44,490 nucleotides of DNA from an uncultured archaeon (GTDB taxonomy: Archaea > Nanobdellota > Nanobdellia > Pacearchaeales > GW2011-AR1), in the NCBI GenBank assembly GCA_903873955.1, contig CAIQQL010000116.1:1-44490 (forward strand). The letters are read 5' to 3'. The translations under genes were made by a program, and so were the position numbers. Of this stretch, positions 6,821 through 29,065 are shown one piece after another. The notes under the pieces were generated by a model, which was not told the DNA's origin, ran no database searches, and worked only from the letters and a program-made list of their open reading frames with translations. Every line of letters starts with the position of its first letter. Within the stretch, counting starts at the first letter, position 1.

Positions 6821-6857
6821 GTAATTACACAGTGACAACAAAGGAAAGGTTTAAATA
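6821..6857 (+). promoter_or_regulatory. Bipartite promoter-like element (GTAAYTAYA - 14/15 nt - GAAAGRTTTAAATA), copy 1
   Basis: 'gtaattacacagtgacaacaaaggaaaggtttaaata'. The TATA-like TTTAAATA ends 45 nt before the ATG at 6903. Near-identical elements occur at 15028..15065 and 16586..16622. Confidence 0.45.
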
Positions 6858-8540: not shown

Positions 8541-8544
8541 TCAC

Positions 8545-15027: not shown

Positions 15028-15065
15028 GTAACTATATAGTGACAACATAACGAAAGATTTAAATA
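15028..15065 (+). promoter_or_regulatory. Bipartite promoter-like element, copy 2 (no ORF behind it)
   Basis: 'gtaactatatagtgacaacataacgaaagatttaaata'. It shares GTAAYTAYA, the 10-mer AGTGACAACA and GAAAGRTTTAAATA with copy 1. Confidence 0.45.
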
Positions 15066-15089
15066 GTCTTTATACCTTAGTTAATTAAT

Positions 15090-16585: not shown

Positions 16586-16622
16586 GTAACTATAAAATAG
16601 TAAAAAAAGAAAGATTTAAATA
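16586..16622 (+). promoter_or_regulatory. Bipartite promoter-like element, copy 3 (drives the AAG-like/SNF2 operon)
   Basis: 'gtaactataaaatagtaaaaaaagaaagatttaaata'. The TATA ends 21 nt before the ATG at 16644, so the mRNA is probably leaderless. Confidence 0.5.
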
Positions 16623-16643
16623 TGAAAAAAGACTAAAAAAAAG

Positions 16644-17144
16644 ATGGATTATAAGACATTTTTTAGCAGAAAAGCTGAAGAAGTAGCGCAGGATCTTTTA
16701 GGATATTTTGCCATACGCAAAAATGATTCAGGGATATTTGCCGCAGTAATAACCGAGACCGCTGCCTATCGCGGAGGCAAGATCACCCCTGCACGACAGG
16801 GTATGCTTTACGAGCCAGGCAGGATATTCCTTATGCCTAACCGAGGTCATCTCCTGCTCAATATTGCCTGTCAGGGCGATATGCCTGCCTGTGTCGAGCT
16901 CAGAGAAATCTCATTTCCTTTCGCACTTGCCTCCCCTCCCAATTTCCCCCGTCCGCGAAGAACCATAAATGGGGCAGGGACCCTCAGCAAATTCTTAGAA
17001 CTAGACGCTCAAATGGACAATACCCTTCTTGGAGATGCATTTTCAATCTCAGACACAAAGTACAAAACCGGAATGACGTCGAGAATCGATACAACTCTGG
17101 AAGATCAAGCCGATAACCTCATCGGAGTCTACCGCTTTTCATAG
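16644..17144 (+). CDS. 3-methyladenine DNA glycosylase (AAG/MPG, PF02245-like) fold protein, probably non-catalytic
   Basis: 'FFSRKAEEVAQDLLG', 'ITETAAYRGG', 'GMLYEPGRIFLM' and 'NIACQGDMPACVELREI' run parallel to human AAG 'FF..PAV.LARAFLG', 'VETEAYLG', 'GMFMKPGTLYVY' and 'NISSQGDGACVLLRALE' (recalled from memory). Confidence 0.65.
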   Translation: MDYKTFFSRKAEEVAQDLLGYFAIRKNDSGIFAAVITETAAYRGGKITPARQGMLYEPGRIFLMPNRGHLLLNIACQGDMPACVELREISFPFALASPPNFPRPRRTINGAGTLSKFLELDAQMDNTLLGDAFSISDTKYKTGMTSRIDTTLEDQADNLIGVYRFS

Positions 17145-17155
17145 GAGGTCTTGAG

Positions 17156-19498
17156 ATGTTCTATGACCTTCGTCCCTACCAGCTTCTAGGGATAAAAAAA
17201 ATTGTTGAAGAAAGGAGAATCCTCCTCGCTGATGACATGGGCCTGGGGAAAACGGCGCAGGCCATCTCAGCAAAACACCTTATCGACCAACAGAATGGCA
17301 GCCGTGCAACATTGGTGGTATGCCCCACAGCAGTCATCCCCCATTGGCATGAAGAGATTAGGGAATGGTATTATAAAGGTAGCAAAACAAAAGTTGCGAC
17401 GGTCGGTACAAGAAACTATGCACGAGAATGTCAAAAGGCGCAAGGTGCAGATTTTGTTGTGACCTCTTATCCAGTACTTTCCTTTTTAGGGGCAAATCCG
17501 GAAAGGATCGGAGCACTAAACGAGATAGGATTTACATACGGCATCCTAGATGAAGGTCATAACACACGCAATCCTGATTCTTTACGTAGCGGTGCTTCCC
17601 GAGAGCTCTTCCATCGCATCCCTTATCTCACCATCCTTTCCGGGACTCCCATCCCCAACACCCTTGTCGACATTTATGCCCAGCTCAATCTCCTCGATCC
17701 CCAGAACTTCCCCATCAATGATGAAGATCCTGACTCCATATTGCACGAATTCTATGAGATCATCCGAAAGAAACCCCATATGATCAGAGATGTCCTCCAT
17801 TCCCGAATGCTGAGACGAACAGCAGACAAGTATCTCAACAAAAAAATGCCTAAGCTTGAACAACTAACGGTTGACAATCCCCTTACTGGTGAGCATGAGG
17901 CAGTGTATCTTGAGCTGTACCAGAATGAGGAGATCCCTCCAGCGCAAAAACTTCAGGAGCTTGTAAAAGCATCGTTAGATCCCAACCTGGTCAATGGAAG
18001 ATATCTTTCTGAACCATTAAGACAAAGGCTCGGATCGATTGCATCTTGCACCTGGGGAAAGCTTGAAGAGATTGTCCACGATGCTGTAAGTAAAAATGGT
18101 GGGAAAGTGATTGGGTTCACGGACCTTAAACGCAAGGTCATTCCTGAACTTTTAAGACGTTTTTCCAGCTATGGCGCAATTGCAATCACCGGCGATACTA
18201 ATGGAGAAGCTCCCCATGGGGAATTGAGCGACAGGGAAAAAGCCAGAATTTCTTTCCAAAGAGACAGCGCAATCAGGGCTCTTTTTGCGACTACAGTCAT
18301 GGATGAAGGAGTAGATTTGACTGCAGGGACCCATCTCATCCATATCACCTTGCCCTATATGCCCGCGACACTAGACCAACGTATAAGACGTTCGCAAAGG
18401 GCGACTGCGGAAGTAGAAAAAGAGACCGTGACCTCCATAACCCTGAGAACCACCCTAAGCAATGGATTAGAGACCATAGATGAAGGGATCAAACTACTTC
18501 TGGATGATAAAAGAAGGATCATCAGATATATCATCGAGTCTCCAGAGAAGCTTACCTTAGATGACCTTAATCTCATCAAAAATGGACATCCTGAAGACTC
18601 GCCGAGCATTTCCGGTTTTCTGAGTGAGAAACGATATATGGACTGGCATCTGGCATCACTTCGGGGCATGGGTGGAGCGCGCATCCAAGAGCAATATGAA
18701 CAACGTCCCTTCTTAGCAGAAAATCTTGCAAGAGCATACATCAAGCATTGGGAAGGATTTTACGCAGGTAATACGGCCACACTCTCGGCGCAGCTCATCA
18801 AACAGGTACTCAAAGATAGAATGAATCCACGAGTCATTGACATCGCATCTGGGCCATTCTCACTTTCCCGCGTGCTTGGTTTCCCGGTCACCAACCTTGA
18901 CCTGAATAAGTATATGCTTGAAGCAGGAAAAATCCTTGAAAATGAAGGGAAGGTCCCACGAGGAAATATCGCTTATGAGGGACTTGCAGGAGAGCTCCCA
19001 TTCAGCGACAAGGAATTTGACCTGGTAAACTGCTCACTTGCACTTCATATGACCTCGCTTAATAGAGCTGAAGGAACGAATTATTCAGATAGAGAGACCG
19101 TCCTCAGGGAAGCAAACAGGGTGATTCCTGTGGGAGGATTCTATACCTTTGCGCTTCCCCATAGCGTCATCCACCGTCAGGATATGCCTACATTTAAAGA
19201 AGGGATCAAGAGGCTCGGATTTGAAGTCCTGCCACAAACAGGGCTCTATAAAGGATCAGGAGAATCTCCTTTCAAGGTATTTTTTGGGGCATTGCGCAAA
19301 GCAGATGAGCCTCAGAATGAACCTCTTCCTGAAGAACTTTTGACCTGGAGAATGGATGCAAGAATAGGCGGAAAAAGAATAGGAGTCACCAAGAGCCTTA
19401 GGAAAGGCCTTCCAAAGAAAAAGAAGAAAGAGCAGTTCGAAAAAATAGGCACCTTTGTCCAGATAGACAGCGGGATGGAGATTGGAGGAGCATCATGA
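17156..19498 (+). CDS. SNF2-family ATPase fused to a C-terminal class I SAM-dependent methyltransferase domain
   Basis: SNF2 motifs 'LADDMGLGKTAQAI' (I), 'ILDEGHNTRN' (II), 'LSGTPIPNTLVDIYAQLNLLDP' (III), 'TTVMDEGVDL' (V) and 'DQRIRRSQR' (VI). The C-terminal ~250 aa carry 'VIDIASGPFS' (SAM motif I-like), 'FDLVNCSLALHM' and 'VIPVGGFY'. Confidence 0.85.
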   Translation: MFYDLRPYQLLGIKKIVEERRILLADDMGLGKTAQAISAKHLIDQQNGSRATLVVCPTAVIPHWHEEIREWYYKGSKTKVATVGTRNYARECQKAQGADFVVTSYPVLSFLGANPERIGALNEIGFTYGILDEGHNTRNPDSLRSGASRELFHRIPYLTILSGTPIPNTLVDIYAQLNLLDPQNFPINDEDPDSILHEFYEIIRKKPHMIRDVLHSRMLRRTADKYLNKKMPKLEQLTVDNPLTGEHEAVYLELYQNEEIPPAQKLQELVKASLDPNLVNGRYLSEPLRQRLGSIASCTWGKLEEIVHDAVSKNGGKVIGFTDLKRKVIPELLRRFSSYGAIAITGDTNGEAPHGELSDREKARISFQRDSAIRALFATTVMDEGVDLTAGTHLIHITLPYMPATLDQRIRRSQRATAEVEKETVTSITLRTTLSNGLETIDEGIKLLLDDKRRIIRYIIESPEKLTLDDLNLIKNGHPEDSPSISGFLSEKRYMDWHLASLRGMGGARIQEQYEQRPFLAENLARAYIKHWEGFYAGNTATLSAQLIKQVLKDRMNPRVIDIASGPFSLSRVLGFPVTNLDLNKYMLEAGKILENEGKVPRGNIAYEGLAGELPFSDKEFDLVNCSLALHMTSLNRAEGTNYSDRETVLREANRVIPVGGFYTFALPHSVIHRQDMPTFKEGIKRLGFEVLPQTGLYKGSGESPFKVFFGALRKADEPQNEPLPEELLTWRMDARIGGKRIGVTKSLRKGLPKKKKKEQFEKIGTFVQIDSGMEIGGAS

Positions 19499-20652
19499 AT
19501 CAAGAACAGGAGATGAGAACAAGAGCCCTCGAACTTTTAGGACAGAATGCAAACTCAGATGAAGTCATGAGAAAGACCGGCCTTAGTAAAATGCAAGTCG
19601 CCGCCTTGAAGGCGCATATCACTATGGGGACCTATTCCAAGAGGCCAGTCACGCAACCAACTCCTTCTCCTTCGCCCAGACCCTCTCTAGCGCGAGAAGA
19701 TGAAAGATATGATCTTGCAAGAAGACTTGCTGAGGAAGGAAGACAGAATGCATATATCCGCGCACAGACCGGACTTGGAAAAATGCAAGTCGCAGGATTT
19801 CTTGCAGCCAGCTCAAGAAAGAAAAGAAATCTTGAATCTAAGGCTGGAGCCACATCCTTGCATCAAACTGACCTGCTAACAACACCTGAGATTCAACCCG
19901 AAACGGATAATCGTCAGTCTATAACCAAACAAGAGGCAATTGAACTCATGACTACAAAAGGAGTTGTCCCAGCCAAGCTAGCCTATGCATACCGTATTGA
20001 TGGCGTCGCATGTTCACCTGAGCAAGTCACTGCCTGGAGGGCGCATATCACTATGGGGACCTATGCCAAGCATCCGGAGCTGCTCATTGGAAATAACCAT
20101 AAAAACGGTGGAAATGGAAAAACGATCCGCAAAAAAGAACAATTAGTTGACTTTATCGTAAAAAGCCCTGAAGTACGAGACCTGTCCGTCCTTGCACTTT
20201 GCCTTGGCGAAGATGGAAGCGAAATAGAAGGTGCGCTGCTTGAAATCTATCAAGGAAGGTTCAAGAGTCGCGAGGAATTACATTCCCTTCTTGAAGAAGC
20301 AAAGGACGATGTCGAAAGATTACTGAATGAGGGAGTGATAAGCTTAGGATATTTTATCGGCAGATACTCTTTGAGAGATAGGACGATGGCCCCTATCTTC
20401 CTTGGAGGGACCGCCTCAAATATCCCCATTGAACGAGCAACCCCTTCCCTCGAAAGGACGTTAATGAGAGTTGCAAGCGGGATCTATGACCCTCAGTTCA
20501 ATGAAGACCCTATAAAAGCCATCAAAGACTTACAAGCAAAAGCAGGGGAAGGGAAAAATCTTGCTAAAAGGATATATGAGACGTTATCCAAAGGATATCA
20601 AGAGGCCCTGGCACTCAAGGAAACCTTGAAGAGCTTTGCCCTTCGCACATAA
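19495..20652 (+). CDS. Protein with three HTH-like modules ('..MQVAALKAHITMGTY') and an uncharacterised C-terminal domain
   Basis: Its start overlaps the SNF2 gene stop (ATGA). The modules are 'GLSKMQVAALKAHITMGTYSK', 'GLGKMQVAGFLAASSRKK' and 'SPEQVTAWRAHITMGTYAK'. Confidence 0.7.
   Translation: MNQEQEMRTRALELLGQNANSDEVMRKTGLSKMQVAALKAHITMGTYSKRPVTQPTPSPSPRPSLAREDERYDLARRLAEEGRQNAYIRAQTGLGKMQVAGFLAASSRKKRNLESKAGATSLHQTDLLTTPEIQPETDNRQSITKQEAIELMTTKGVVPAKLAYAYRIDGVACSPEQVTAWRAHITMGTYAKHPELLIGNNHKNGGNGKTIRKKEQLVDFIVKSPEVRDLSVLALCLGEDGSEIEGALLEIYQGRFKSREELHSLLEEAKDDVERLLNEGVISLGYFIGRYSLRDRTMAPIFLGGTASNIPIERATPSLERTLMRVASGIYDPQFNEDPIKAIKDLQAKAGEGKNLAKRIYETLSKGYQEALALKETLKSFALRT
19611..20064 (+). 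repeat. Exact 25-nt intragenic direct repeat encoding 'AHITMGTY'
   Basis: 'ggcgcatatcactatggggacctat' occurs at 19611..19635 and at 20040..20064. Confidence 0.85.
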
Positions 20653-20678
20653 TTGTAAAAAAATTAATCCTTAAGGAG

Positions 20679-21776
20679 TCATTTCCAATAATCCCTTAAA
20701 AGCCCATCTCTAGAATCCTTTTTCGTTTCATCTTCAAGGCCATCTCCAGATTCCTCTTCAGGTTCTTTTTTTGTCCCATCCCAAAATACCGTCTCCCAAA
20801 CCCCTTTGAACTTTATCGCCCTTGCAAGCATGACACATTTTTCATCGAGATGTAGATTACGGAGTCTTCGTGTACTGCTGTCCACAACAAGCACGTTATT
20901 GTCAAGCTTTTCAGCATACTCTGTTGCAAACTGCCTTGAGGGTAGAGGGAAGGGGTTCATCTCCAGAGGAACAGTATTATCTTTTCCATTCCAGTACTTT
21001 CTTATCACCGCAAGATACGCCGCAATCTCATGGGGTCCGAACGTAAATACATCTGACCCTCTTCTCGATTGTTGGTCCTCATAACGAAGATTGTGCAGGA
21101 AGGTCATCCTCAGAGGCTCTTTTCCATCCTCATACTGGCTTTTTAGACCCCAGATTATCGCTTTTTTTTCTTTAGAGTCAGTCAATGGAACCGATTGTAA
21201 AAAAAGTCCATAACGCTGCTTGCGCTTTGTACGTGACGGGACTTTGCATAATAGTTTTGCACCCTCACTTTGGACTATGTTTGCTTCCACATAACGGTCA
21301 TCGACGGTAATCTTACCAGCTACTTGTGATGCATAAGCATAGATCTTGGTCCCCTCAATGACCGCGTCAAAGGGAACCTTTCTCCACCGCCTGTCTTTTC
21401 CTTGCACAGGAAACCAACGTAAACCAATCATCCAGATCTGTTCTTCCTTTAGGTCCCTTAATGCAACTTCTAAACTTTGCATACGATTAATCAGCGGAGT
21501 ATATGGATACTCATACGCTGCTTGTTGCCCTTGAGGTTGGTTCAATGGGAGATACCATCCATGACGATAATGCTTCCTTGAAGCGAGAGTGTCCGGTGTG
21601 TTTCTTCTAAGAAATTCAAGAGGGATGATGGGTGTCCTGACTTCAATGGCGTCAGTGTCTGGGTTAAGATCATAGATCTTCGCGACGAGATTATGGGGGG
21701 TGTATGCTGCCTTGAGTTTCAAGGTCTCTTGAATTTCCTCTGGTTCTCGTTTCTGGAAAAACGTTTTCTTTTCCAT
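20679..21776 (-). CDS. Hypothetical protein (365 aa), orphan
   Basis: A long ORF. The track start at 21797 is TTG. The ATG at 21776 ('MEKKTFFQK') sits about 25 nt downstream of the minus-strand 'ttttttatatt'. It has an acidic C-terminal tail. I recognise no family. Confidence 0.6.
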   Translation of the reverse strand: MEKKTFFQKREPEEIQETLKLKAAYTPHNLVAKIYDLNPDTDAIEVRTPIIPLEFLRRNTPDTLASRKHYRHGWYLPLNQPQGQQAAYEYPYTPLINRMQSLEVALRDLKEEQIWMIGLRWFPVQGKDRRWRKVPFDAVIEGTKIYAYASQVAGKITVDDRYVEANIVQSEGAKLLCKVPSRTKRKQRYGLFLQSVPLTDSKEKKAIIWGLKSQYEDGKEPLRMTFLHNLRYEDQQSRRGSDVFTFGPHEIAAYLAVIRKYWNGKDNTVPLEMNPFPLPSRQFATEYAEKLDNNVLVVDSSTRRLRNLHLDEKCVMLARAIKFKGVWETVFWDGTKKEPEEESGDGLEDETKKDSRDGLLRDYWK

Positions 21777-21897
21777 CCCCTCTTTAAGAAGAAACAATAT
21801 AAAAAACTATCTTTTGTTACCACTTTCTTGTTAATCTAAGCCGTATCCTGGAAATAAACTCGGCAATATTTATTAAGAAGACAGACTTATTTTTTTG

Positions 21898-22668: not shown

Positions 22669-24407
22669 TGTGATGGTGCCAGGTTCCTCCTGTATGTTCC
22701 CATGGTCAGATGTGCTTTAAAAGCAGCTAATTGACGAGTGGAGATGTTATATGTTTGCACAATCTCTCCTTCGGAAAAAGACCCGTCAGCAATCAATTGC
22801 CCAAGCTCATGCTTTTCTTCCCTGGTTAATCTGCGCGTAGGATTAGTAGCAGGTGAGTTTCCTGCTTCGCGCCCATTCAATTCAGCTAGCGGATTTTCAA
22901 CTGGAGCTGAATCTTTTTGCAAGATAGCTCTCTCGAGAATACCTTCCTGGCAGTTATGTGAAGGGGTCCATCCTTGCCAGCGCCTCAGCCCTGCTTTAAT
23001 GCCTCCAAGTTCTCTTCCTGTAAGATGATACATCTCGAGAATCTCCGCGTCCGTCCTCCCGCTTTCAAATTCTGCACGAATTACTTCTGAAAGAGTTTGT
23101 GGCACGAGATCCTTACGGTCTGCCTTGACATATTCCAGCTCAGTCCTTAAAACCTGATTGTAACTATTGAACTTCCTATAAAACGCATCGCTGTTGCCCA
23201 TAAGATATACTCCTGGCATCCTCACTGGATCTTCATCGCTTTCTTCCTCATTTTTCAGCCGTTCCTGGTGCAGAGTGGCTGCAACCTTTCCACTAAGGAG
23301 GACAATATCGGGTTGAGGGATTTGACCATCAACCGGCGTCCGATCATTCAAGATTAGTCGCTGATAAACACAGTGGTGGTTTTCCCATCCAAAGCTGAGG
23401 TCTCTTTCTACACCTGCAAAAAAGTCAGGACGTTGCTGTAGCAGGATAAAGTCATAGAGCATCGGACTTCCGTTGTCTGAAACGTACCTTCCTTTTTCAT
23501 AGTCTGAGATAAAATAGGGTCGTTTCAGCGTCCCATTCTGCATGTATGTCAATATGCTGTTTCGCATCCCTTCATCACCTGGAAACTCCCCATCAAGAAA
23601 TATGGAAAGAAGAGTGTCAATTGCTCCTTGGGCAAAGGCAAAGAATTCCTTATGTGCTAAAGGATTTTTGATGACATCTTCCACTGGAACGTCATAATTC
23701 GACTGTTTATAGAATTCCCTGAAATACGGCGCAGCAATCAACTGCTGATAGGATTCCAGAGGGGTGTTTGATCCGGTTAAATAACGCAGTTTAAGACTGA
23801 TCATCTTGTCACGAATGGTGCCTAAATCCTCGGTGTCTTTGAGAAAATCGACAAATCTCATGTCGTTAAGGACACGCGCAGCTATCTTCTCATCTTGCCT
23901 TTCCAAAAATTTAAGCATCTCCCCTCCCTGGGTCAGAACGAAGGTATCAAGCACGTACTTACTCTGTCTCTTTTCCCCTTCACGAGATCCGTAAAAATTC
24001 GTACCGAGAACATAACGAGGACCAACCTTGTCACTGCGGGCAATCTCTCCTATGAGCAGGTCTTCTGCTGCCCCAAATTGCGACTGAAAGTCCAGGTTTA
24101 CAATATCAAAATGTTCCCGAGTCTGAGCAAAAAAGTCACGTGCATCACCTTCATAGAGATTTATACCAAGATTCTGCGCCCTGATCTGCGCCGCAACCTC
24201 AGGATTTCGTTCGATTCCATACACCCGATCCCTGCGAATTCCAAAACGATCATAGACGTCTTTAACTTCTAATGCCTCTTGTGCCGGAAAGCATACGACG
24301 CGCAAGCTTCGTCTTCGTTTGACATCAGGGTATGTCCTTTCAAGAAAGTGCAGGAACTCTTTACGATAGAGCCTTTTTGATTCAAAATCATAACTTGCCT
24401 TTTGCAT
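22653..24407 (-). CDS. Paralogue A: methyltransferase-like N-domain + two C-terminal HTH-like modules
   Basis: The ATG at 24407 ('MQKASYDF') matches the conserved paralogue N-terminus. Motifs 'LRVVCFPAQ', 'GIERNPE', 'FDIVNLDF' and 'YVSDNGSPMLYDF'. A degenerate module 'AEILEMYHLTGRELGGIKAGLRRW' precedes the terminal 'STRQLAAFKAHLTMGTYRR'. Confidence 0.7.
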   Translation of the reverse strand: MQKASYDFESKRLYRKEFLHFLERTYPDVKRRRSLRVVCFPAQEALEVKDVYDRFGIRRDRVYGIERNPEVAAQIRAQNLGINLYEGDARDFFAQTREHFDIVNLDFQSQFGAAEDLLIGEIARSDKVGPRYVLGTNFYGSREGEKRQSKYVLDTFVLTQGGEMLKFLERQDEKIAARVLNDMRFVDFLKDTEDLGTIRDKMISLKLRYLTGSNTPLESYQQLIAAPYFREFYKQSNYDVPVEDVIKNPLAHKEFFAFAQGAIDTLLSIFLDGEFPGDEGMRNSILTYMQNGTLKRPYFISDYEKGRYVSDNGSPMLYDFILLQQRPDFFAGVERDLSFGWENHHCVYQRLILNDRTPVDGQIPQPDIVLLSGKVAATLHQERLKNEEESDEDPVRMPGVYLMGNSDAFYRKFNSYNQVLRTELEYVKADRKDLVPQTLSEVIRAEFESGRTDAEILEMYHLTGRELGGIKAGLRRWQGWTPSHNCQEGILERAILQKDSAPVENPLAELNGREAGNSPATNPTRRLTREEKHELGQLIADGSFSEGEIVQTYNISTRQLAAFKAHLTMGTYRRNLAPSHYGSD

Positions 24408-25899
24408 CTTTCCCTCCAGTATATGTGCCCATGGTGTTATGTGCTTTGATGGCAGAAAGCTGTCCGCGGGTAATACTATAAGCGTCAAGAATTTCAGATT
24501 CATTGAAAGCAGGATCGCGCAACATCTGGGCAATCTCATATTTTTCTCTTTTTCCAAGCTTTCTTGGTGTGTGTCGCGAGATTATATCCCCCTCAGTCCC
24601 TTCTGAAGGAGACAGTCCATCTACTCTTTGCGCACTTGGCGATACAAGCAATCCTGGTCGTTCTGGAATGAGCTCAATGCGAGGGGCAAGAGGAAGGCGC
24701 ACAACCTGTTCCATATACTGATGAAGATATTCCATCCTTTTCACTAGTCTCTGTAGAGACCACCCTAGAGGATTTATCTTGACGTAGCAGTCATTGTTGG
24801 CATCAGCCTGTTTGAAGGAGAAAATGTCTGACAACCTCATTTTTATCCCTTCAGGGACCTGGGAAAAGCTGAAGAGATCCATCAGCATAGGGCATCCGCT
24901 ATTGCTCGTGTATTTGTATCGCTCAAAGGCGTTGTAATGATAGGACTTTTGCATTATTGAACCTTGTAAATGAAGCAAGGATCTTGCAAGGTCCGCAGGG
25001 ACCAATTGACTTAATTTATGGACCAATTGTGCATAACGGGCAGTGTAGTATCCTTGTTCATAGACCACCGGATCCTCCGAAAACTTCACATTGGCTCTGT
25101 CTGAAAGGCCGTTTAGTTTCCTAAGGAAATCCAGATCCCGTGTCGCAGGCAAATCATTTTTTACTCCTTGTATCACCGTTTCTTTATAGGGCTCATCAGA
25201 GAACATGCTTTTCCCCATAGGTCTGTTGATTGTCCCGCCCATAAATATGGTGACAAGCTCAGTCGTTATTCCATCACGAAGCCCTTCAAGATTCCCTTCC
25301 TTGCCCTGCCTATCCAACATCTGTTCAAGTTCAAGAAGTCTCTCAGCCCTAAACCGTTCGGTAGAAAAGTCATTATCGGGCCATGCTTCCATGAATTTTG
25401 CCTGACGCTGCTGATGCAAGAGCCTATTTGCAAGCAGCTTTTGCATACTCTCGCTTTCCCTTCTTCCAGAGTAGACAGTCGCAATGATTCCTTTGGGAGC
25501 AAGCAGTTGGCGTGAGGCGATATATTCGAGGGTACATGCTTCAGTGATTGTCTGCTGGCCTGTATAGTCTAGGCTGATGATATCAAACGGGGCTGGATTT
25601 GCGTGCAAAAAATACTGGTCCGCTTCTCTGCAGATTACTTCAATACCTAAGTTGGCCCTGCGCAACCGTTCAGCCTTTTCAGGGTCACGCTCGAGGCTTG
25701 TGACATGATTACGGGGTATACCTAAGACGTCACAAATCTCCTTGACTTCTATGCCTGCTTCCTCGACTGTTTCTGCTCCAGCAAAACAGAGATATCTCAG
25801 ATCCTGGACCCGTCTTTTCGGATCTTTGTTTTTCTCAGAAAAGACCATCTGTTTCATCCTTGCAAGATGCTTTGCTGGATCATTGTAGGATTTAGACAT
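24388..25899 (-). CDS. Paralogue B: methyltransferase-like N-domain + C-terminal HTH-like module
   Basis: ATG at 25899 ('MSKSYNDP'). Motifs 'LRYLCFAGA', 'SLERDPE', 'FDIISLDY', 'YTSNSGCPMLMDL' and the terminal 'TRGQLSAIKAHNTMGTYTG'. Confidence 0.7.
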   Translation of the reverse strand: MSKSYNDPAKHLARMKQMVFSEKNKDPKRRVQDLRYLCFAGAETVEEAGIEVKEICDVLGIPRNHVTSLERDPEKAERLRRANLGIEVICREADQYFLHANPAPFDIISLDYTGQQTITEACTLEYIASRQLLAPKGIIATVYSGRRESESMQKLLANRLLHQQRQAKFMEAWPDNDFSTERFRAERLLELEQMLDRQGKEGNLEGLRDGITTELVTIFMGGTINRPMGKSMFSDEPYKETVIQGVKNDLPATRDLDFLRKLNGLSDRANVKFSEDPVVYEQGYYTARYAQLVHKLSQLVPADLARSLLHLQGSIMQKSYHYNAFERYKYTSNSGCPMLMDLFSFSQVPEGIKMRLSDIFSFKQADANNDCYVKINPLGWSLQRLVKRMEYLHQYMEQVVRLPLAPRIELIPERPGLLVSPSAQRVDGLSPSEGTEGDIISRHTPRKLGKREKYEIAQMLRDPAFNESEILDAYSITRGQLSAIKAHNTMGTYTGGKDAKGKL

Positions 25900-27343
25900 G
25901 CTGCACCCCTCTGTCACGGTTGATCTTCACCCAGGCAGCAACGGAAGAGATCTTTCTTCTTTCCACTTCCCCATTAAAAAGCATGGCAATATCCTCAATT
26001 GTTGCCCCGCCCGCACGAAGCTCACGGATGACTTGTTTTTCGTCTTCTTGCAAATCCCGTTTTTTTCCAGCGAGAGGCATGGATTGGCCTGAAGTGCCCT
26101 CCAAAGGCAAAGGTCCCCCTTGGACAACCTCCAGATAGATCTTTTCTGATGCACTTGACCCTAGAAATATCCTTTTTTGCTGCTTCCCCAACTCATGGAC
26201 TTTCGTCTTTTTTTCAAAAAGGTTCAACCCCTGCTCCTTCACTTCTGCACGCAGCCTGTCACGAGACTCTTTCCGGTTTACCTCTGGCAGCACATAAATC
26301 GCAGTTTCATGCTTCCTCACCAGGAAGGAGCTTTCAAGCCTTTGTACAATACGAGCATGATTGTCAAGATAGAAGATGTCAAATAACATCGGCGTCCCGC
26401 TGTTGCTTACGTAACCGTACGATTCCAGGGACTCGACAAGATACGGCTTTTGATGGGCTATTAAAAATGCAGAAGCCAAGGGGAAGTCAAGACCTGCGTT
26501 GATCAGCGCTTCCCAGCGGGAAATATCTTCATTGATCCTAAACATCCTATGACGCATGACGTTCTCTTCCCTGTTCCTGGTAAACTTGATAGAGATGCAG
26601 GCTTTGTCCCTTTCATCACCAACTCTGGAAACCACATCAAGAAAATGCGCAGAGGACTCATCAAACCCGCCAAAACAGTCATAGAACTCCCTGCCCAGAT
26701 TTGCCCGACCCAGAGTGAAGGTGCCTGTAAGGATAGACCGTAAAACCTGTTCGCGGTCTTCTCTTAAATCGAACGATTGATTGAGCTGCGCAACTCTTGT
26801 CAGGGCAGGCTCATAATTCGTCAAGAGTTCCTGTAAAGACACTCCTCCTTTTACCATTGCACTATTGCATTGCAGCAGATCCTGCGCATCCTCATTTTCT
26901 CTTCGGGCCATGAAATTTGTCGCAATAATCCCTCGATTATCCAATAAGCCATCACTTGCGATAAGCTCCAACGCATAATGGCGCTCGGGAGAGAAGTAGG
27001 ATGTGTAGTCCAGATTAAAGACCGTCCACTTTCGTCCCTTTGACCGTGCAGTCTTCAAGACCTCCAGGTCTTTGGCGTGGATCAGCTCTATCCCTAAACC
27101 TGCAGCACACAGGCGATCATACTTTTCACGGTCCAGCTCCACTCCAGTGATATTTTCCCGAGGTATTCCTAAAGCATCGTAATATGCAAGTTCCAGTGCA
27201 ACTTCGCCATCCTTTTGGGCTCCGGGAAAACAAAATATCCGCACATCCTTCGGCTTTCGATAGGAGAGAATGTAATCTCTAATCCCGTTCTGCAGTTTTA
27301 CTCGGGTGATATCCTTTACTGTGTCATTATAACTTTTATCCAT
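25892..27343 (-). CDS. Paralogue C: methyltransferase-like N-domain + degenerate C-terminal HTH-like module
   Basis: ATG at 27343 ('MDKSYNDT'). Motifs 'VRIFCFPGA', 'GVELDRE', 'WTVFNLDY', 'YVSNSGTPMLFDI' and the terminal 'IEDIAMLFNGEVERRKISSVAAWVKINRDRG'. Confidence 0.7.
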   Translation of the reverse strand: MDKSYNDTVKDITRVKLQNGIRDYILSYRKPKDVRIFCFPGAQKDGEVALELAYYDALGIPRENITGVELDREKYDRLCAAGLGIELIHAKDLEVLKTARSKGRKWTVFNLDYTSYFSPERHYALELIASDGLLDNRGIIATNFMARRENEDAQDLLQCNSAMVKGGVSLQELLTNYEPALTRVAQLNQSFDLREDREQVLRSILTGTFTLGRANLGREFYDCFGGFDESSAHFLDVVSRVGDERDKACISIKFTRNREENVMRHRMFRINEDISRWEALINAGLDFPLASAFLIAHQKPYLVESLESYGYVSNSGTPMLFDIFYLDNHARIVQRLESSFLVRKHETAIYVLPEVNRKESRDRLRAEVKEQGLNLFEKKTKVHELGKQQKRIFLGSSASEKIYLEVVQGGPLPLEGTSGQSMPLAGKKRDLQEDEKQVIRELRAGGATIEDIAMLFNGEVERRKISSVAAWVKINRDRGVQHV

Positions 27344-28751
27344 GTTCTTCCCTCCGTCGATATGTCCCCATTGTCTGATGTGCCTTGAATGCTGCCAATT
27401 GCATCTTGGTAAACCCAGTATAACACTGTGCAATCTCTGCAGGAGTGAATCCTGAACTAAGCAGGTCAAGTACCTGGGCCTTGGAGAGTGTCTCCTTATT
27501 TCCAGATCCGGGCTGAGGAGATAAACCTGAAAGAGTATGATCTGCCGGGGAACCTAGGACCTTATTTTCTCCATAGGCCGAACCGAGATTCTCACGTGGC
27601 GCAAGGCTATTCCCGAAACATCTGTAACGGCAATTACAAAAGTCAGAAATAAGCCCAATGGCCTCTTTTTCAAGAGAGGGATGATACTTGCTTACTTTCC
27701 AGTCCAAGTTCTGAGGATCGATGGAAAGGCGGAAGGTCCTGGAAAGGTCCAGATGCTTGACATAGTTGATATCGACCAGCATAGCCGAACCCTTGTCCCC
27801 TATATAGCGAAGCCTTCTCTGATCAGCAACAAAATAGGACTGCAGGGGAGTGTAATAGAGCAACTCTGCTGCCAGCGTCAAGGTCTGCAGGCTGACATTG
27901 CCCTCTGGAAAAAGGTCGACATTTATGGCTTCACGTAATTTATCCTTCAGAAAAGGCATGGCATAAAAAGTATCGATTGTCTCCTGACGGGAAGGAAGTC
28001 CTCCACTGCCCAATTGATAATTGTCCTTTGCCCCTCCGATAATATCCTGTCCAACAAAATACGTGCGTGCAATCTTTGCAGTCTCATTACCAGGAGCCCT
28101 TCTGAGCTGCTCATCTTGCCACACCAGGAAAGCATCAAGAAGATCGCGGTCTTTCAAAAAATAAGGATGAATCTGCCGGTTGTGAATTCCATCAATCAAG
28201 ATTGAGCAGATATTGCGGGAAAGCAAATTTGAACGGTCCTTGATCGTACCCGCGCCTCCCTCTTCCTCCTCGCAGAAATCCCTATGTGCCGCCTCAAACC
28301 AGGACTTGGCATACCCGCTTTCCCTCATTCCCAAGTACCAGGTGGCCAATATCCCTTTCTCACCCAACAGCTGTCTTCCCGCAATTGTTCGCAATGCATT
28401 GCGCTGTTCAAACCCAAACGGAGCAAAGCCATCAATGTTGATGATGTCAAAAGTCTCGGAAGTGGTCTCAAGAAATTCATCAATAGAAACAGGCTTTGGA
28501 GGAAGCCGTACTCCCCAGCCCTGGGACTGTATTCGCCCATAGGTTTGAGGGTCATTTTCCAGACAGAGAATATTACCGCGGGGAACCCCCAGACGATCCC
28601 ATACCTGCTCAAGCTCCAGGGATTGATGCCCGAGAAGCGTCAAGACACGTAGGCCTTTTCTTTGCGAAGGCTTAGGATAGAGATTGGTCGTAAATCCTGC
28701 CAGGATCCCTCTTGCCAATGTTTTCGTGCTATAATTATAGGTCTCTTTCAT
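27336..28751 (-). CDS. Paralogue D: methyltransferase-like N-domain + C-terminal HTH-like module
   Basis: ATG at 28751 ('MKETYNYS'). Motifs 'LRVLTLLGH', 'CLENDPQ', 'FDIINIDGFAPFG' (reminiscent of Trm1 'IDLDPFGSP'), 'YIGDKGSAMLVDI' and the terminal 'TKMQLAAFKAHQTMGTYRR'. Confidence 0.7.
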   Translation of the reverse strand: MKETYNYSTKTLARGILAGFTTNLYPKPSQRKGLRVLTLLGHQSLELEQVWDRLGVPRGNILCLENDPQTYGRIQSQGWGVRLPPKPVSIDEFLETTSETFDIINIDGFAPFGFEQRNALRTIAGRQLLGEKGILATWYLGMRESGYAKSWFEAAHRDFCEEEEGGAGTIKDRSNLLSRNICSILIDGIHNRQIHPYFLKDRDLLDAFLVWQDEQLRRAPGNETAKIARTYFVGQDIIGGAKDNYQLGSGGLPSRQETIDTFYAMPFLKDKLREAINVDLFPEGNVSLQTLTLAAELLYYTPLQSYFVADQRRLRYIGDKGSAMLVDINYVKHLDLSRTFRLSIDPQNLDWKVSKYHPSLEKEAIGLISDFCNCRYRCFGNSLAPRENLGSAYGENKVLGSPADHTLSGLSPQPGSGNKETLSKAQVLDLLSSGFTPAEIAQCYTGFTKMQLAAFKAHQTMGTYRRREEHG

Positions 28752-28942
28752 CGCGCCTTCTTCTCCTCCTCTATAAATATTAAACGATCTTTTGCCTTGA
28801 GCGGGCTAATCCTGCATAAGTTGAGCACTTCTAGCATCTTCTGCAAAATCTCATCATAGGTCTCCCGGCTATGTGTCCGCAGGTGTTCCAGCCTTTCCTT
28901 GGTATCCAAAGAGAGCTTTATCGTCGTTATCTTAGAGTCCAT
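28748..28942 (-). CDS. Ribbon-helix-helix (CopG/VapB-antitoxin-like) small DNA-binding protein, first gene of the paralogue operon
   Basis: 'TTIKLSLDTKERLEHLRTHSRETYDEILQKMLE' fits the beta-strand/helix/helix pattern of archaeal RHH proteins. Its stop overlaps the start of paralogue D (ATGA). Confidence 0.6.
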   Translation of the reverse strand: MDSKITTIKLSLDTKERLEHLRTHSRETYDEILQKMLEVLNLCRISPLKAKDRLIFIEEEKKAR

Positions 28943-28945
28943 ATT

Positions 28946-28970
28946 GGTATACCGCGGTATACCTTTATAA
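28946..28970 (-). promoter_or_regulatory. Perfect 18-bp palindrome (candidate operator) between the TATA box and the RHH start
   Basis: GGTATACCGCGGTATACC at 28946..28963. The minus-strand 'ttataaa' at 28964..28970 lies immediately upstream, and the ATG at 28942 is 3 nt downstream of the palindrome. Confidence 0.5.
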
Positions 28971-29065
28971 TCTTTTTGCTACTTTCTAATAGTATCTTTT
29001 TTGTTGTTACCACAAAGTTTATAAATAACCGATTTCTTGGTAAATTAACTAAATTTACTACGAAC

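What the first reader, a model, noticed from the sequence alone, without database searches (positions are those of the whole stretch)
16586..28970. Candidate undescribed system: two facing operons (AAG-like + SNF2-methyltransferase + 3xHTH; RHH + four HTH-methyltransferase paralogues) tied together by a shared 'KAHxTMGTY' module
A block with no housekeeping logic lies between dnaG and a surface-protein gene.

The plus-strand operon has three genes. An AAG/MPG-fold protein (16644..17144) is followed by an 11-nt gap with GGAGG. Next is an SNF2 ATPase fused to a class I SAM-methyltransferase (17156..19498). An ATGA overlap then leads into a protein with three HTH-like modules (19495..20652).

The facing minus-strand operon starts with an RHH gene (28748..28942). 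Four tandem paralogues follow (27336..28751, 25892..27343, 24388..25899, 22653..24407). Each has a methyltransferase-like N-domain and a C-terminal copy of the same HTH-like module. Between the operons are an orphan 365-aa protein and an endonuclease IV-type AP endonuclease.

The module ending '[KR]AHxTMGTY' occurs five times in good form, in paralogues A, B and D and twice in the 385-aa protein. Degenerate copies occur in A, C and the 385-aa protein. I did not find it anywhere else in the window. This is direct sequence evidence that the two operons belong together.

In total there are five predicted methyltransferase-type domains, one Snf2 translocase, one base-flipping glycosylase fold that seems to lack its general base, one AP endonuclease and one RHH regulator. 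I see no canonical restriction nuclease, PglZ/BrxC, DrmA/B/C, Dnd or Dpd component, so it does not fit R-M, BREX or DISARM as I know them.

Three hypotheses, all inference:
1. A multi-specificity DNA-modification module coupled to a modification-sensing Snf2 motor, acting as a defence system.
2. Targeted base methylation followed by excision and AP cleavage of foreign DNA.
3. An epigenetic or chromatin-remodelling system.
Basis: partly seen in the sequence, partly recalled or inferred. Interest (0 to 1): 0.9.

Follow-up and report, generated by a model that had tools for sequence, protein, structure and literature searches.

The report
Undescribed DNA-handling gene cluster, DPANN archaea
A small-genome (DPANN) archaeon carries a conserved, so far undescribed gene set (a DNA motor fused to a methyl-adding enzyme, a DNA-base-flipping protein, a DNA-binding adaptor, and four extra methyl-adding enzymes that share the adaptor's DNA-binding piece) that probably marks and inspects DNA, but its purpose is still unknown.

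Summary
The genes and the shared '[KR]AHxTMGTY' module are real. One correction: the good copies are in paralogues A, C and D, not B.

Comparative genomics redraws the unit. The conserved core is a three-gene operon:
- an AAG-fold protein;
- a Snf2 ATPase fused to a class-I SAM methyltransferase;
- an adaptor ('P385') with a variable HTH array and a constant ~170-aa helical C-domain.

All three were found together in about 20 DPANN loci.

The four paralogues ('PARA') belong to a separate, large DPANN-only family: 1048 clusters, no Pfam, NCBIfam, PADLOC or PHROG match. The fold is a class-I methyltransferase with a helical insertion and a tethered HTH. PARA is usually a lone gene elsewhere in the genome.

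PARA lies next to the trio only in the window's subclade, but there in 8 of 8 loci and at different chromosomal sites. In those same loci the adaptor carries PARA-type HTH modules. The link is therefore supported.

The 372-aa gene and the Endo IV gene are synteny bystanders.

The AAG-like family lacks the canonical general base (E125 is Gly/Ala) but has a near-invariant Glu at the L180 position.

No known defence or R-M family test is met. The role (glycosylase-type restriction, genome maintenance or chromatin marking) is unresolved.

The parts
16587..16622 (+). Promoter of the AAG-like operon: BRE/TATA 'GAAAGATTTAAATA' at 16609-16622, preceded by a 'TAACTAT..ATAGTAA' element. This is the genome's general promoter type, not specific to the system.
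   Evidence: the same architecture occurs at 6844, 15052 and 43218
16644..17144 (+). AAG/MPG-fold protein (166 aa), first gene of the conserved trio. The canonical general base is absent ('ITETAAY' versus human 'VETEAY'). Pocket residues Y127, N169 and R182 are kept, Y162 is replaced by an invariant Arg, and L180 by a near-invariant Glu.
17156..19498 (+). Snf2 ATPase (aa 1-470) fused to a class-I SAM methyltransferase (Methyltransf_11 type, aa ~545-705), followed by a basic tail. Helicase motifs I, II (DEGH), III, V and VI and the SAM motifs are conserved in 22 orthologues.
19495..20652 (+). Adaptor 'P385' (385 aa). It has three 3-helix HTH-like modules (aa 2-47, ~65-114 degenerate, 139-190) of the PARA C-terminal type, plus a conserved all-helical C-domain (aa ~205-385). 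That C-domain is the hallmark of the family found in every trio.
27336..28751 (-). PARA paralogue A (471 aa): a class-I methyltransferase-like core with a helical insertion and a C-terminal HTH (27360-27500, KAHQTMGTY). It is the most divergent copy: motif I is 'TLLGHQ' and motif IV is 'IDG'.
25892..27343 (-). PARA paralogue B (483 aa). Its C-terminal HTH (25913-26059) is degenerate ('AAWVKINRD').
24388..25899 (-). PARA paralogue C (503 aa), the canonical subfamily and orthologue of the lone PARA genes of other DPANN genomes. HTH at 24421-24561 (KAHNTMGTY). This is the modelled protein (pLDDT 82).
22653..24407 (-). PARA paralogue D (584 aa), the long subfamily that recurs next to the trio in L001, L008, L057 and L058. 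It has two HTH modules; the terminal one is at 22692-22832 (KAHLTMGTY).
28748..28942 (-). RHH protein (DUF7557), first gene of the PARA operon, overlapping paralogue A by ATGA. It also precedes the lone PARA gene in L002, L009 and L023.
28946..28975 (-). Putative operator 'GGTATACC-GC-GGTATACC' (28946-28963), lying between the TATA box (28964-28975) and the RHH start codon. Two or three GTATAC boxes are conserved at the same place upstream of the RHH genes of L002, L023 and L021.
20679..21797 (-). 372-aa protein with no family match. Probably NOT part of the system: its homologue in L008 (6e-129) lies next to dnaG, 4 kb away from the cluster.
21895..22668 (+). Endonuclease IV-like TIM-barrel protein. 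Probably a housekeeping neighbour: homologues (69% identical in L002, the only pair measured) lie near RHH-PARA in L002 and L023, where the trio is absent from the stretch read. It could still serve downstream of a glycosylase.

Best explanation
**What it is (shown by comparison; confidence about 0.85)**
- This is one DNA-directed, multi-protein module of Woese-/Pacearchaeota-type DPANN archaea.
- Its conserved core is a translationally coupled trio:
  1. an AAG-fold base-flipping protein with a rebuilt active site;
  2. a Snf2 double-strand-DNA translocase fused to a class-I SAM methyltransferase;
  3. an adaptor whose N-terminus is a variable array of HTH modules and whose constant helical C-domain most likely docks it to the other two.
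- In the subclade this window belongs to, the trio has become linked to PARA genes, and the adaptor carries PARA's own HTH module.
- PARA proteins are DPANN-specific methyltransferases with a variable helical insertion and an HTH on a flexible tether.
- The PARA operon is headed by an RHH repressor with a GTATAC-box operator.

**How it most likely works (inference; confidence about 0.35-0.4)**
1. The shared HTH brings the PARA methyltransferases and the adaptor-Snf2-AAG complex to the same DNA.
2. The PARA enzymes, and possibly the methyltransferase domain fused to Snf2, write N-methyl marks. Each paralogue would have its own specificity, set by its helical insertion.
3. The Snf2 motor tracks along or opens the DNA.
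4. The AAG-fold subunit flips purines and reads or excises those in the 'wrong' methylation or alkylation state.
5. This leaves abasic sites for the cell's Endo IV.

In effect it would be a restriction-modification-like surveillance machine with a glycosylase in place of a nuclease. Whether it polices foreign DNA or the cell's own chromosome is not resolved.
For: **The trio is conserved**
- AAG-like, P385 C-domain and Snf2-methyltransferase were found together, mostly with overlapping genes, in about 20 distinct loci from genome and metagenome scans.
- 73 Snf2-methyltransferase clusters of about 780 aa turned up even in a word-limited search.

**PARA is linked to the trio**
- PARA is adjacent in 8 of 8 loci of the window's subclade, in three different arrangements: divergent, convergent and intercalated in L057. 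The chromosomal sites differ.
- PARA is adjacent in 0 of about 12 loci of the other subclade.
- PARA-type HTH modules occur in the adaptor only where PARA is adjacent.
- L059 is syntenic with L008 (EF-2 83% identical, EF-1a 85%). It keeps the PARA pair but lacks the trio there, so the juxtaposition was assembled rather than inherited as a block.

**The parts point to DNA**
- Adaptors of the other subclade are bona fide HTH arrays (Sigma70_r4 8e-33, HTH_23 1.5e-28).
- The HTH modules are basic (pI 9.4-10).
- Snf2 helicase motifs are conserved, and the best solved relative is the Sulfolobus Rad54-like dsDNA translocase 1Z63.
- The AAG fold keeps the base-stacking Tyr, Asn169 and Arg182.

**PARA looks like a working methyltransferase**
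- The AF2 model has pLDDT 82 and a 7-stranded class-I fold.
- The ribose-binding Glu70 and the motif IV 'LDY' are invariant in 53 diverse members.
- The helical insertion is the most variable part.

**Regulation**
- The RHH gene and its operator are conserved in four genomes.
Against: - Neither methyltransferase type matches any DNA-methyltransferase family.
  - The Snf2-fused domain is UbiE/Methyltransf_11-like.
  - The PARA core is closest to RsmD-type rRNA methyltransferases. Its longer structural matches are protein-lysine methyltransferases (PKMT1/2, Rv2067c) and giant-virus chromo-domain proteins. All of these matches are weak, with E between 1e-5 and 1e-3.
- The PARA helical insertion is acidic (pI 6.0), which is unusual for a DNA-recognition domain.
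- The AAG-like protein lacks the canonical general base, so excision is unproven.
- About half of the Snf2 orthologues have GKC instead of GKT in Walker A.
- Most PARA genes are solitary with no conserved neighbour, so PARA has a function that does not need an adjacent trio.
- There is no nuclease, no defence-island context, no viral or plasmid copies, and no PADLOC hit beyond generic Snf2.
- No protein-protein contact was tested. The P385 model is poor (pLDDT 61).
Confidence: 0.4

Rival explanations
1. Housekeeping repair machine with an unrelated neighbour. The trio would be the DPANN version of alkylation or deamination base-excision repair. A Snf2 motor, in the manner of CSB, Rad54 or ALC1, would give the AAG-like glycosylase access to DNA, and the adaptor would tether it. 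PARA would be an independent methyltransferase that merely sits nearby.
For: - The trio is widespread, of constant length and largely vertically inherited. For example, L001 and L058 share flanking synteny.
- It lies among translation and replication genes: EF-2, EF-1a, ThrRS, eIF-1A, fibrillarin, dnaG.
- The AAG pocket residues are kept.
- Endo IV is adjacent in this window.
- Most PARA genes are solitary.
Against: - The canonical catalytic Glu is replaced in all members examined. That is unexpected for a plain repair enzyme.
- The fused methyltransferase has no role in this model.
- The adaptor's HTH arrays vary in type, number and gene copy (1-3 per locus), which looks like diversifying specificity.
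- PARA adjacency in 8 of 8 loci at different sites, together with the module sharing, is hard to call coincidence.
- The trio is absent from the syntenic site in L059.
Confidence: 0.2
2. Chromatin or protein-methylation system. PARA enzymes would be DNA-tethered protein (lysine or N-terminal) methyltransferases that mark chromatin proteins. The Snf2-methyltransferase would be a remodeller-writer recruited to the same places by the shared HTH. This corresponds to the first reader's hypothesis 3.
For: - The longest structural matches of the PARA model are class-I protein-lysine methyltransferases (PKMT1/2, E 3e-5; Dot1-like Rv2067c) and giant-virus chromo-domain proteins (6e-5, 4e-4).
- The helical insertion is acidic.
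- The Snf2-fused domain is of the small-molecule/protein methyltransferase type.
- 'KAHxTMG' is conserved family-wide, which suggests one constant target for the HTH rather than many sequences.
Against: - All the structural matches are weak and dominated by the common Rossmann core.
- The AAG-fold subunit is present in every locus of the main trio clade with enough flank (only the distant L032 lacks it) and has no role in protein methylation.
- No chromatin protein gene is linked.
Confidence: 0.15
3. Methylation as a weapon, with a built-in antidote. The methyltransferases would put replication-blocking ring-nitrogen methyl groups (such as N3-A or N7-G) on invading DNA. The AAG-like protein would remove collateral lesions from the host chromosome.
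For: - AAG-family pockets recognise 3-methyladenine and 7-methylguanine (established knowledge of the family).
- The methyltransferase domains lack the (D/N)PP(Y/F) motif of exocyclic-amine DNA methyltransferases.
- The Methyltransf_11 family includes ring-N7 guanine RNA methyltransferases (my knowledge).
- Endo IV is nearby.
Against: - There is no precedent for an enzymatic N3-A or N7-G DNA methyltransferase.
- The PARA motif 'LDY' (acid plus aromatic) looks more like an amino-group methyltransferase.
- The system was not found on mobile elements or in defence islands.
- This model rests entirely on inference.
Confidence: 0.1
4. No joint function. The shared module would be an old, common DPANN HTH domain, and the adjacency a lineage-specific accident inherited by related genomes.
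For: - The eight PARA-linked loci belong to one Snf2 subclade.
- The HTH modules of P385 are orthologous across genomes rather than recently exchanged with the local PARA genes.
Against: - Within that subclade the cluster sits at different chromosomal sites: next to dnaG and Endo IV here, between EF-2 and EF-1a in L008, and beside the FBP-aldolase genes in L001 and L058.
- The gene orders also differ, including a PARA gene inside the operon in L057. The adjacency was therefore kept or re-made through rearrangements.
Confidence: 0.08

Closest known systems
Human/bacterial alkyladenine (methylpurine) DNA glycosylase, AAG/MPG (Pfam PF02245)
   Same: Same fold and family: Pfam score 49.6 bits against a cut-off of 27, and profile E 5e-10 to 1BNK/1EWN. 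The base-stacking Tyr127, Asn169 and Arg182 equivalents are conserved.
   Different: - The general base Glu125 is Gly/Ala in all members.
- The His136 loop is deleted.
- The intercalating Tyr162 is an invariant Arg.
- Leu180 is a near-invariant Glu.
- The protein is about 150-165 aa.
- In every locus of the main trio clade seen here (the distant L032 has none) it is the first gene of an operon with a Snf2-methyltransferase.
- It falls below the NCBIfam 3mg cut-off (45 against 116 bits).
DISARM (DrmD Snf2 helicase + DrmMI/MII methyltransferase + DrmA/B/C)
   Same: A Snf2-family ATPase and methyltransferase activity are encoded together. PADLOC and NCBIfam DrmD models hit the helicase part.
   Different: - DrmD scores are far below cut-off (70 against 610 bits).
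- There is no DrmA, DrmB (DUF1998) or DrmC (PLD) protein.
- The methyltransferase is fused to the motor and is not of the N6/C5 DNA-methyltransferase type.
- An AAG-fold protein and an HTH-array adaptor are present instead.
Type I / type ISP restriction-modification
   Same: The logic is similar: motor, methyltransferase and a specificity subunit built from variable DNA-binding parts plus a constant docking part. Several specificity genes can occur per locus.
   Different: - The motor is Snf2, not HsdR.
- There is no nuclease domain.
- There is no N6_Mtase/NPPY methyltransferase and no HsdS fold.
- No Pfam, NCBIfam or PADLOC match to any Hsd component.
R.PabI-type restriction glycosylase systems (archaeal/bacterial R-M in which the restriction enzyme is a DNA glycosylase)
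   Same: This is a precedent (from my knowledge) for a methyltransferase paired with a base-excising effector, with abasic sites as the damaging lesion.
   Different: - R.PabI has a 'half-pipe' fold, not an AAG fold.
- It has no motor and no adaptor.
- Its partner is a classical DNA methyltransferase.
- No sequence relation was tested or found here.
Snf2 remodellers that work with DNA methylation (DDM1/HELLS) and the archaeal Rad54-like SsoRad54 (PDB 1Z63)
   Same: The best solved relative of the ATPase is 1Z63 (5e-21). DDM1/HELLS also match (1e-11). In both cases a motor provides access to DNA for modifying enzymes.
   Different: - No chromo, bromo or HAND-SANT accessory domains.
- A fused C-terminal methyltransferase.
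- Operon partners that are unknown in those systems.
RsmD-type (m2G) and other small class-I methyltransferases; class-I protein-lysine methyltransferases PKMT1/2 and Rv2067c
   Same: The PARA core superposes on RsmD/YhhF (2FPO, 2IFT; rmsd ~3.6 A over ~147 residues). 'FDiisLD' aligns with 'FDVVFLDPPF'. Full-length alignments are to PKMT1/2 and Rv2067c.
   Different: - Motif IV is 'LDY(T/K)G', not DPPF.
- There is a 170-aa helical insertion between strands 5 and 6.
- There is a tethered C-terminal HTH with 'KAHxTMG'.
- No Pfam family matches at E <= 1e-3 in 53 members, apart from isolated weak hits in a few members (DUF433, HTH_23, Spermine_synth) and a Radical_SAM match (6e-7) in one, probably a fusion partner.

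Membership tests
AAG/MPG glycosylase (PF02245) | Sequence membership: score above the Pfam gathering threshold | tested here: met
   49.6 bits against a cut-off of 27. The profile of 15 orthologues hits human AAG structures at 5e-10.
AAG/MPG glycosylase (PF02245) | General-base Glu (human Glu125) in the 'ETEAY' motif | tested here: not met
   The profile 'iietgayeg' aligns with 'IVETEAYLG'. The position is Gly (12) or Ala (3) in the 15 of 17 distinct members where a pattern match could read it. The residue's role is taken from PMC13299579.
AAG/MPG glycosylase (PF02245) | Base-binding pocket: Tyr127, Asn169 and Arg182 equivalents | tested here: met
   Y42 is nearly invariant; N73 and R87 are invariant. 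Tyr162 is replaced by invariant R67, and Leu180 by Glu in 15 of the 16 members where the position could be read.
AAG/MPG glycosylase (PF02245) | Glycosylase activity on alkylated or deaminated purines | not testable with these tools
   This needs an enzyme assay.
Snf2 family ATPase | SNF2-related N-lobe and Helicase_C lobe with motifs I, II (DExH), III, V and VI | tested here: met
   Pfam scores are 122 and 40 bits, both above cut-off. The motifs are conserved in 22 orthologues. Caveat: Walker A reads GKC in about half of the orthologues; this window has GKT.
DISARM | DrmD equivalog score, and presence of DrmA, DrmB and DrmC | tested here: not met
   NF038317 scores 69.9 bits against a cut-off of 610. 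PADLOC hits only the helicase part of one protein, including a partial DrmA-model match (3e-13) on its C-terminal helicase lobe; no separate DrmA, DrmB or DrmC gene was found.
Dpd (7-deazaguanine DNA modification) | DpdE equivalog score; DpdA transglycosylase and DpdB present | tested here: not met
   NF041062 scores 74 bits against a cut-off of 500. No other Dpd model was hit.
Zorya / BREX | ZorD with ZorA/B/C; or PglZ, BrxC and PglX | tested here: not met
   Only generic Snf2 similarity was found: ZorD 3.5e-33 over the helicase part, NF041790 at 56 bits against 1500, and BrxH at 9e-11. No partner genes are present.
Type I restriction-modification | HsdM (N6_Mtase, NPPY), HsdS (Methylase_S) and HsdR | tested here: not met
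   No such Pfam, NCBIfam or PADLOC match in any of the ten proteins.
Class-I SAM methyltransferase fold (PARA paralogues) | Seven-stranded Rossmann-like fold with an acidic residue at the end of strand 2 and motif IV at the end of strand 4 | tested here: met
   - The AF2 model has pLDDT 82.
- Foldseek gives probability 1.0 to many class-I methyltransferases, although E is only 3e-5 to 1e-3.
- E70, D111 and Y330 are invariant, and Y112, R147 and E148 nearly invariant, in 53 members.
DNA amino-methyltransferases (N6A/N4C) | (D/N/S)PP(Y/F/W) motif IV and membership of the N6_Mtase, N6_N4_Mtase or MethyltransfD12 families | tested here: not met
   Motif IV is 'LDY(T/K)G'. No Pfam DNA-methyltransferase family is hit in 53 members.
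   No Pfam, NCBIfam, PADLOC or PHROG family is hit. The only sequence-level PDB hit is RsmD at E 0.57.
Endonuclease IV (nfo) | Equivalog or subfamily score | tested here: inconclusive
   AP_endonuc_2 scores 90.7 bits, above its cut-off of 31. TIGR00587 nfo scores 41.8 against 129.65, and CbiR scores similarly.
RHH regulator (DUF7557) | Pfam membership and an operator with repeated half-sites | tested here: met
   34.8 bits against a cut-off of 25. GTATAC boxes lie between the TATA box and the start codon in four genomes. Binding itself was not tested.

The most novel reading that the evidence does not exclude
A conserved, previously undescribed DNA-surveillance machine, widespread in Woese-/Pacearchaeota-type DPANN. 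An AAG-fold protein with a relocated catalytic carboxylate would work on DNA together with a Snf2 translocase-methyltransferase fusion and interchangeable HTH-array adaptors. In one lineage it would also work with a battery of novel HTH-tethered methyltransferases. This would be either a new class of immunity ('restriction by base excision', driven by a chromatin-remodeller-type motor) or an enzymatic write-and-erase system for purine methylation in archaea.
Probability: 0.3. Interest if true: 0.85.

Novelty: categorically new. Interest (0 to 1): 0.72.

Why it matters
DPANN archaea have tiny genomes, so a multi-gene set conserved across many of them is likely to be important to their biology.

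Two large protein families have no annotation at all:
- PARA, with over 1000 clusters at 50% identity;
- the P385 adaptor C-domain.

A third family, the AAG-like protein, is mis-annotated as an ordinary repair glycosylase even though it lacks the canonical catalytic residue.

If the parts act together on DNA, this would be the first system to couple an AAG-fold protein to a Snf2 motor and methyltransferases. The result would be either a new immune principle or a prokaryotic write/read/erase system for base methylation.

It also gives concrete, testable predictions:
- complex formation between the trio proteins;
- a methylome that scales with PARA copy number;
- activity of the Glu85 and Arg67 variants of the AAG-like protein.

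Even if the role turns out to be mundane repair, the work defines three new families and a conserved RHH-operator pair.

Tried and rejected
1. **Curated libraries.** Pfam, NCBIfam, PADLOC and PHROGs gave nothing for PARA, P385 or the 372-aa protein.
2. **P385 structure.** The two-sequence model has pLDDT 61, and Foldseek found nothing below E 0.28. The C-domain fold remains unknown.
3. **Genome scan with A2.** The first attempt failed because no stretch was conserved enough. It was redone with the tighter alignment A4.
4. **System-specific operator upstream of the AAG-like gene.** The conserved 'GTAAC..TAGTNAC' plus 'GAAAGATTTAAATA' element also precedes unrelated genes in this window (6844, 15052, 43218). 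It is therefore a general promoter type, and I rejected it as a system feature.
5. **Within-genome exchange of HTH modules between P385 and PARA.** This was not supported in general. P385 modules are orthologous across genomes. The only exception is the first module of L001/L008 P385, which is about 50% identical to the C-terminus of the local long PARA.
7. **The 372-aa gene and Endo IV as components.** I rejected both as synteny bystanders.
8. **Mobile-element origin.** No relatives were found in IMG/VR viral contigs or PLSDB plasmids. Only L029 has an integrase and a Rep gene nearby.
9. **Literature.** No paper was found linking DPANN or Woesearchaeota with Snf2, or mentioning DUF7557 or PF02245 in such a context.

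Full report

Yes.

- The plus-strand genes are tightly coupled. The junctions read 'TAG-GAGG...ATG' and an ATGA overlap.
- The minus-strand genes RHH-A-B-C-D overlap by 4, 8, 8 and 20 nt.
- Pfam confirms the domain calls:
  - Pur_DNA_glyco (4e-13);
  - SNF2-rel_dom + Helicase_C + Methyltransf_11;
  - AP_endonuc_2;
  - DUF7557, an RHH-type family.
- The four paralogues and the 385-aa protein have no Pfam, NCBIfam, PADLOC or PHROG match.
- The four paralogues are 23-29% identical to one another.
- A six-frame scan for [KR]AHxTMGTY, allowing two substitutions, finds five hits and nothing else in 44.5 kb. Two are in the 385-aa protein.

The window is a chromosomal contig of a DPANN archaeon.
- Its flanks encode IMPDH, an ADP-forming acyl-CoA synthetase, archaeal DnaG, a surface protein, a nucleotidase and Rad50.
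- All relatives come from Woese-/Pacearchaeota or 'Nanoarchaeota' MAGs.

**2. What the paralogues ('PARA') are**

Family size and annotation:
- A word-limited search found only 16 relatives.
- A full HMM scan of 1.84 billion representatives found 1048 clusters at E <= 1e-3 and 455 at E <= 1e-30, mostly about 450 aa.
- 53 diverse members have no Pfam family. A few show weak HTH-type hits on the C-terminal module.

Structure of paralogue C (AF2 model, pLDDT 82):
- It is a complete seven-stranded class-I SAM-methyltransferase.
- A ~170-aa helical insertion lies between strand 5 and the strand 6/7 hairpin.
- A small alpha/beta subdomain follows, then a disordered linker and a three-helix C-terminal module.

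Structural neighbours:
- Foldseek recognises only the generic fold.
  - The best compact matches are RsmD/YhhF, PmtA, NodS and TrmN.
  - The best long matches are the protein-lysine methyltransferases PKMT1/2 and Rv2067c.
  - E values run from 3e-5 to 1e-3.
- In the viral library the best matches are giant-virus chromo-domain proteins.

Conserved residues:
- K10, the strand-2 Glu70, motif IV 'LDY' (L110, D111, Y112), R147-E148 and Y330 are invariant or nearly so in 53 members.
- Motif IV aligns with the 'LDPPF' of RsmD.
- SAM binding and N-directed catalysis are therefore plausible. The substrate, whether a DNA base, RNA or a DNA-bound protein, cannot be read from sequence.

Other features:
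- 'KAHxTMG' is a family-wide hallmark of the C-terminal module.
- The module is basic, while the helical insertion is acidic.
- The paralogues here are not recent duplicates. C-type, D-type and a third type are orthologous across genomes, and A and B are divergent.

**3. What the plus-strand operon is**

The Snf2-methyltransferase fusion is a conserved ~780-aa DPANN protein. There are 73 clusters at E <= 1e-30, nearly all carrying both domains. Helicase and SAM motifs are conserved.

Wherever the contig is long enough, two partners are present, usually with overlapping genes:
- an AAG-like gene of about 150-165 aa;
- one to three genes sharing the C-terminal ~170 aa of the 385-aa protein ('P385').

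This holds for about 20 distinct loci. Two gene orders occur: AAG-P385-Snf2 (with or without extra P385 copies) and AAG-Snf2-P385.

P385 proteins differ wildly in their N-terminal halves:
- arrays of sigma-70-region-4/HTH_23-type modules (up to 8e-33);
- 'LGHFP' repeats;
- or, in the window's relatives, two or three PARA-type modules.

The C-domain is constant and all-helical, with no catalytic-looking motif. Its fold could not be modelled. I read P385 as an adaptor with a variable DNA-binding part and a constant docking part. This is inference.

**4. The AAG-like protein**

A profile of 15 orthologues aligns with human AAG at 5e-10. Residue by residue (residue roles from PMC13299579):
- 'iietgayeg' aligns with 'IVETEAYLG'. 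The general base Glu125 is Gly or Ala in every member where the position could be read.
- Tyr127, Asn169 and Arg182 are kept.
- The His136 loop is missing.
- The intercalating Tyr162 is an invariant Arg.
- Leu180, which lies next to C1' in AAG, is a Glu in 15 of the 16 members where the position could be read.

This is not a standard repair AAG. It could be a pure base-flipping 'reader', or a glycosylase whose carboxylate has moved. An assay is needed to tell which.

**5. Do the two operons belong together?**

Most PARA genes are solitary.
- About 17 distinct loci have no Snf2 gene within the available flanks (up to 10 kb) and no conserved neighbour. The exception is an RHH gene in some of them.

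Most trios have no PARA nearby.

The exception is the set of orthologues at least 55% identical to this window's Snf2-methyltransferase. All seven, plus the window itself, have PARA genes beside the trio:

| Locus | Arrangement | Source |
|---|---|---|
| L001, L008, L055, L056, L057, L058 | divergent from the AAG-like gene | |
| L033 and the window | convergent | |
| L057 | also one PARA gene inside the operon, between Snf2 and P385 | |

Further points:
- The chromosomal sites differ:
  - dnaG and Endo IV in this window;
  - EF-2 and EF-1a in L008;
  - the FBP-aldolase cluster in L001 and L058.
- L059 is syntenic with L008 (EF-2 83% identical, EF-1a 85%). It keeps a PARA pair at that site but has no trio there.
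- Only in these eight loci does P385 carry PARA-type HTH modules.

Adjacency retained through rearrangement, together with a shared targeting module, is good evidence for a functional link in this lineage. Its weakness is that the eight genomes form a single clade.

Two genes are probably bystanders:
- The 372-aa gene's homologue sits beside dnaG in L008.
- Endo IV accompanies RHH-PARA in L002 (69% identical there) and L023, where the trio is absent from the stretch read.

**6. Regulation**

- The RHH gene precedes PARA here and in L002, L009 and L023.
- Between its TATA box and its start codon lie two GGTATACC palindromes one helical turn apart (28946-28963).
- Equivalent GTATAC boxes occur in L002, L023 and L021.
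- This is a likely autoregulatory operator.
- The element upstream of the AAG-like gene is the genome's general promoter type.

**7. How it most likely works**

Shown:
- the composition of the cluster;
- its conservation;
- operon coupling;
- the shared module;
- intact motor and SAM motifs;
- the rebuilt AAG active site.

Inferred:
- The trio forms a complex on DNA.
- The HTH module takes PARA and the trio to the same DNA.
- PARA enzymes write methyl marks, with specificities set by their variable insertions.
- The motor moves or opens DNA, so that the AAG-fold subunit can flip and read or excise purines.
- Abasic sites then go to Endo IV.

This is restriction-modification-like logic with a glycosylase in place of a nuclease. 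I put about 0.85 on 'one real, conserved DNA-directed system' and about 0.4 on this mechanism.

Points against:
- Neither methyltransferase resembles a DNA methyltransferase.
- The PARA insertion is acidic.
- Excision is unproven.
- The genes sit in core-genome contexts and were not found on viruses or plasmids.

Rivals, detailed in the report sections:
- plain repair with an unrelated neighbour (0.2);
- chromatin or protein methylation (0.15);
- toxic methylation with an antidote (0.1);
- no joint function (0.08).

**8. Comparison with known systems**

- PADLOC and NCBIfam hit only the helicase part, far below family cut-offs:
  - DrmD 70 bits against 610;
  - DpdE 74 against 500;
  - ZorD 56 against 1500.
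- No partner genes of DISARM, Dpd, Zorya, BREX or type I R-M are present.
- The closest analogies are:
  - type I/ISP R-M: motor, methyltransferase and modular specificity subunit;
  - DISARM: Snf2 plus methyltransferase;
  - R.PabI-type restriction glycosylases: a base-excising effector;
  - DDM1-type remodellers.
- Membership fails for each of these.
- I found no paper describing this cluster. The searched library is limited to open-access texts.

**9. Verdict**

This is a real, conserved and apparently undescribed gene system whose function is still open. Its composition lies outside every catalogued kind, so I rate it categorically new, with interest 0.72. The main reservations are that the mechanism is inferred and that the PARA link rests on one lineage.

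Noticed in passing
window 15035-15520 (+), between dnaG and the AAG-like gene: Candidate structured non-coding RNA.
- A strong archaeal promoter (TATA at 15052-15065) is followed by about 430 nt that fold far better than shuffles (z = -5.5; 0 of 100 shuffles fold as well).
- The stretch contains four copies of a 36-nt two-stem hairpin, at 15199, 15287, 15404 and 15457. Each has a constant 8-nt loop 'UCUARAYU' and a 3' 'CACGA' internal loop.
- 7 of the 9 base pairs show compensatory changes between copies.
- There is no Rfam match even at E <= 1, and a covariance model found no convincing copy in 32 related loci.
   Followed up: partly
window 6844, 15052, 16609, 43218; L001, L008, L029-L031, L055-L058 upstream of the AAG-like genes: Recurrent promoter architecture in these archaea. 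A 'GTAAC..TAGT(G/T)AC(N)AC' element lies about 5-10 nt upstream of a 'GAAAG(A/G)TTTA(A/T)A(A/T)A' BRE/TATA. It is found at unrelated genes and across genomes, so it is a general promoter feature and not system-specific.
   Followed up: partly
P0156-P0228 (Snf2-methyltransferase orthologues), Walker A near residue 30: About half of the orthologues have 'GxGKC' instead of 'GxGKT/S' in the Walker A motif. Among those matched by a pattern: 20 GKC, 18 GKT, 3 GKS. A Cys at this Mg-coordinating position is unusual for an active Snf2 ATPase. This window has GKT.
   Followed up: no
L057:9320-10903 (+): A 527-aa protein with bacterial-type Sigma70_r2 (5e-11) and Sigma70_r4 (4e-18) domains lies directly downstream of the cluster on an archaeal (DPANN-like) contig.
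   Followed up: no
L029:5452-17335: In one genome (GCA_053532875.1) the trio, with three P385 paralogues, is flanked by a tyrosine integrase, a GIY-YIG protein, a Rep_1 + NikA-like pair and a Fic protein. It may lie on an integrated element there. No other locus looked like this.
   Followed up: no
window 20679-21797 (-); L008:17630-18769; L038:1-487: The 372-aa protein belongs to a conserved family with no Pfam match. It neighbours dnaG in L008 and lies next to the AAG-like gene in L038. Its function is unknown.
   Followed up: partly
L002:11421-15314: In a related genome the lone RHH-PARA pair is followed by two paralogous ~424-aa proteins with no family match, a Rieske protein and a Methyltransf_11/25 protein. 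This may be a different accessory set for PARA.
   Followed up: no
window 6903-9705 (+): Two adjacent large ORFs (545 and 386 aa) upstream of an Ig/fn3-domain surface protein have no Pfam match.
   Followed up: no
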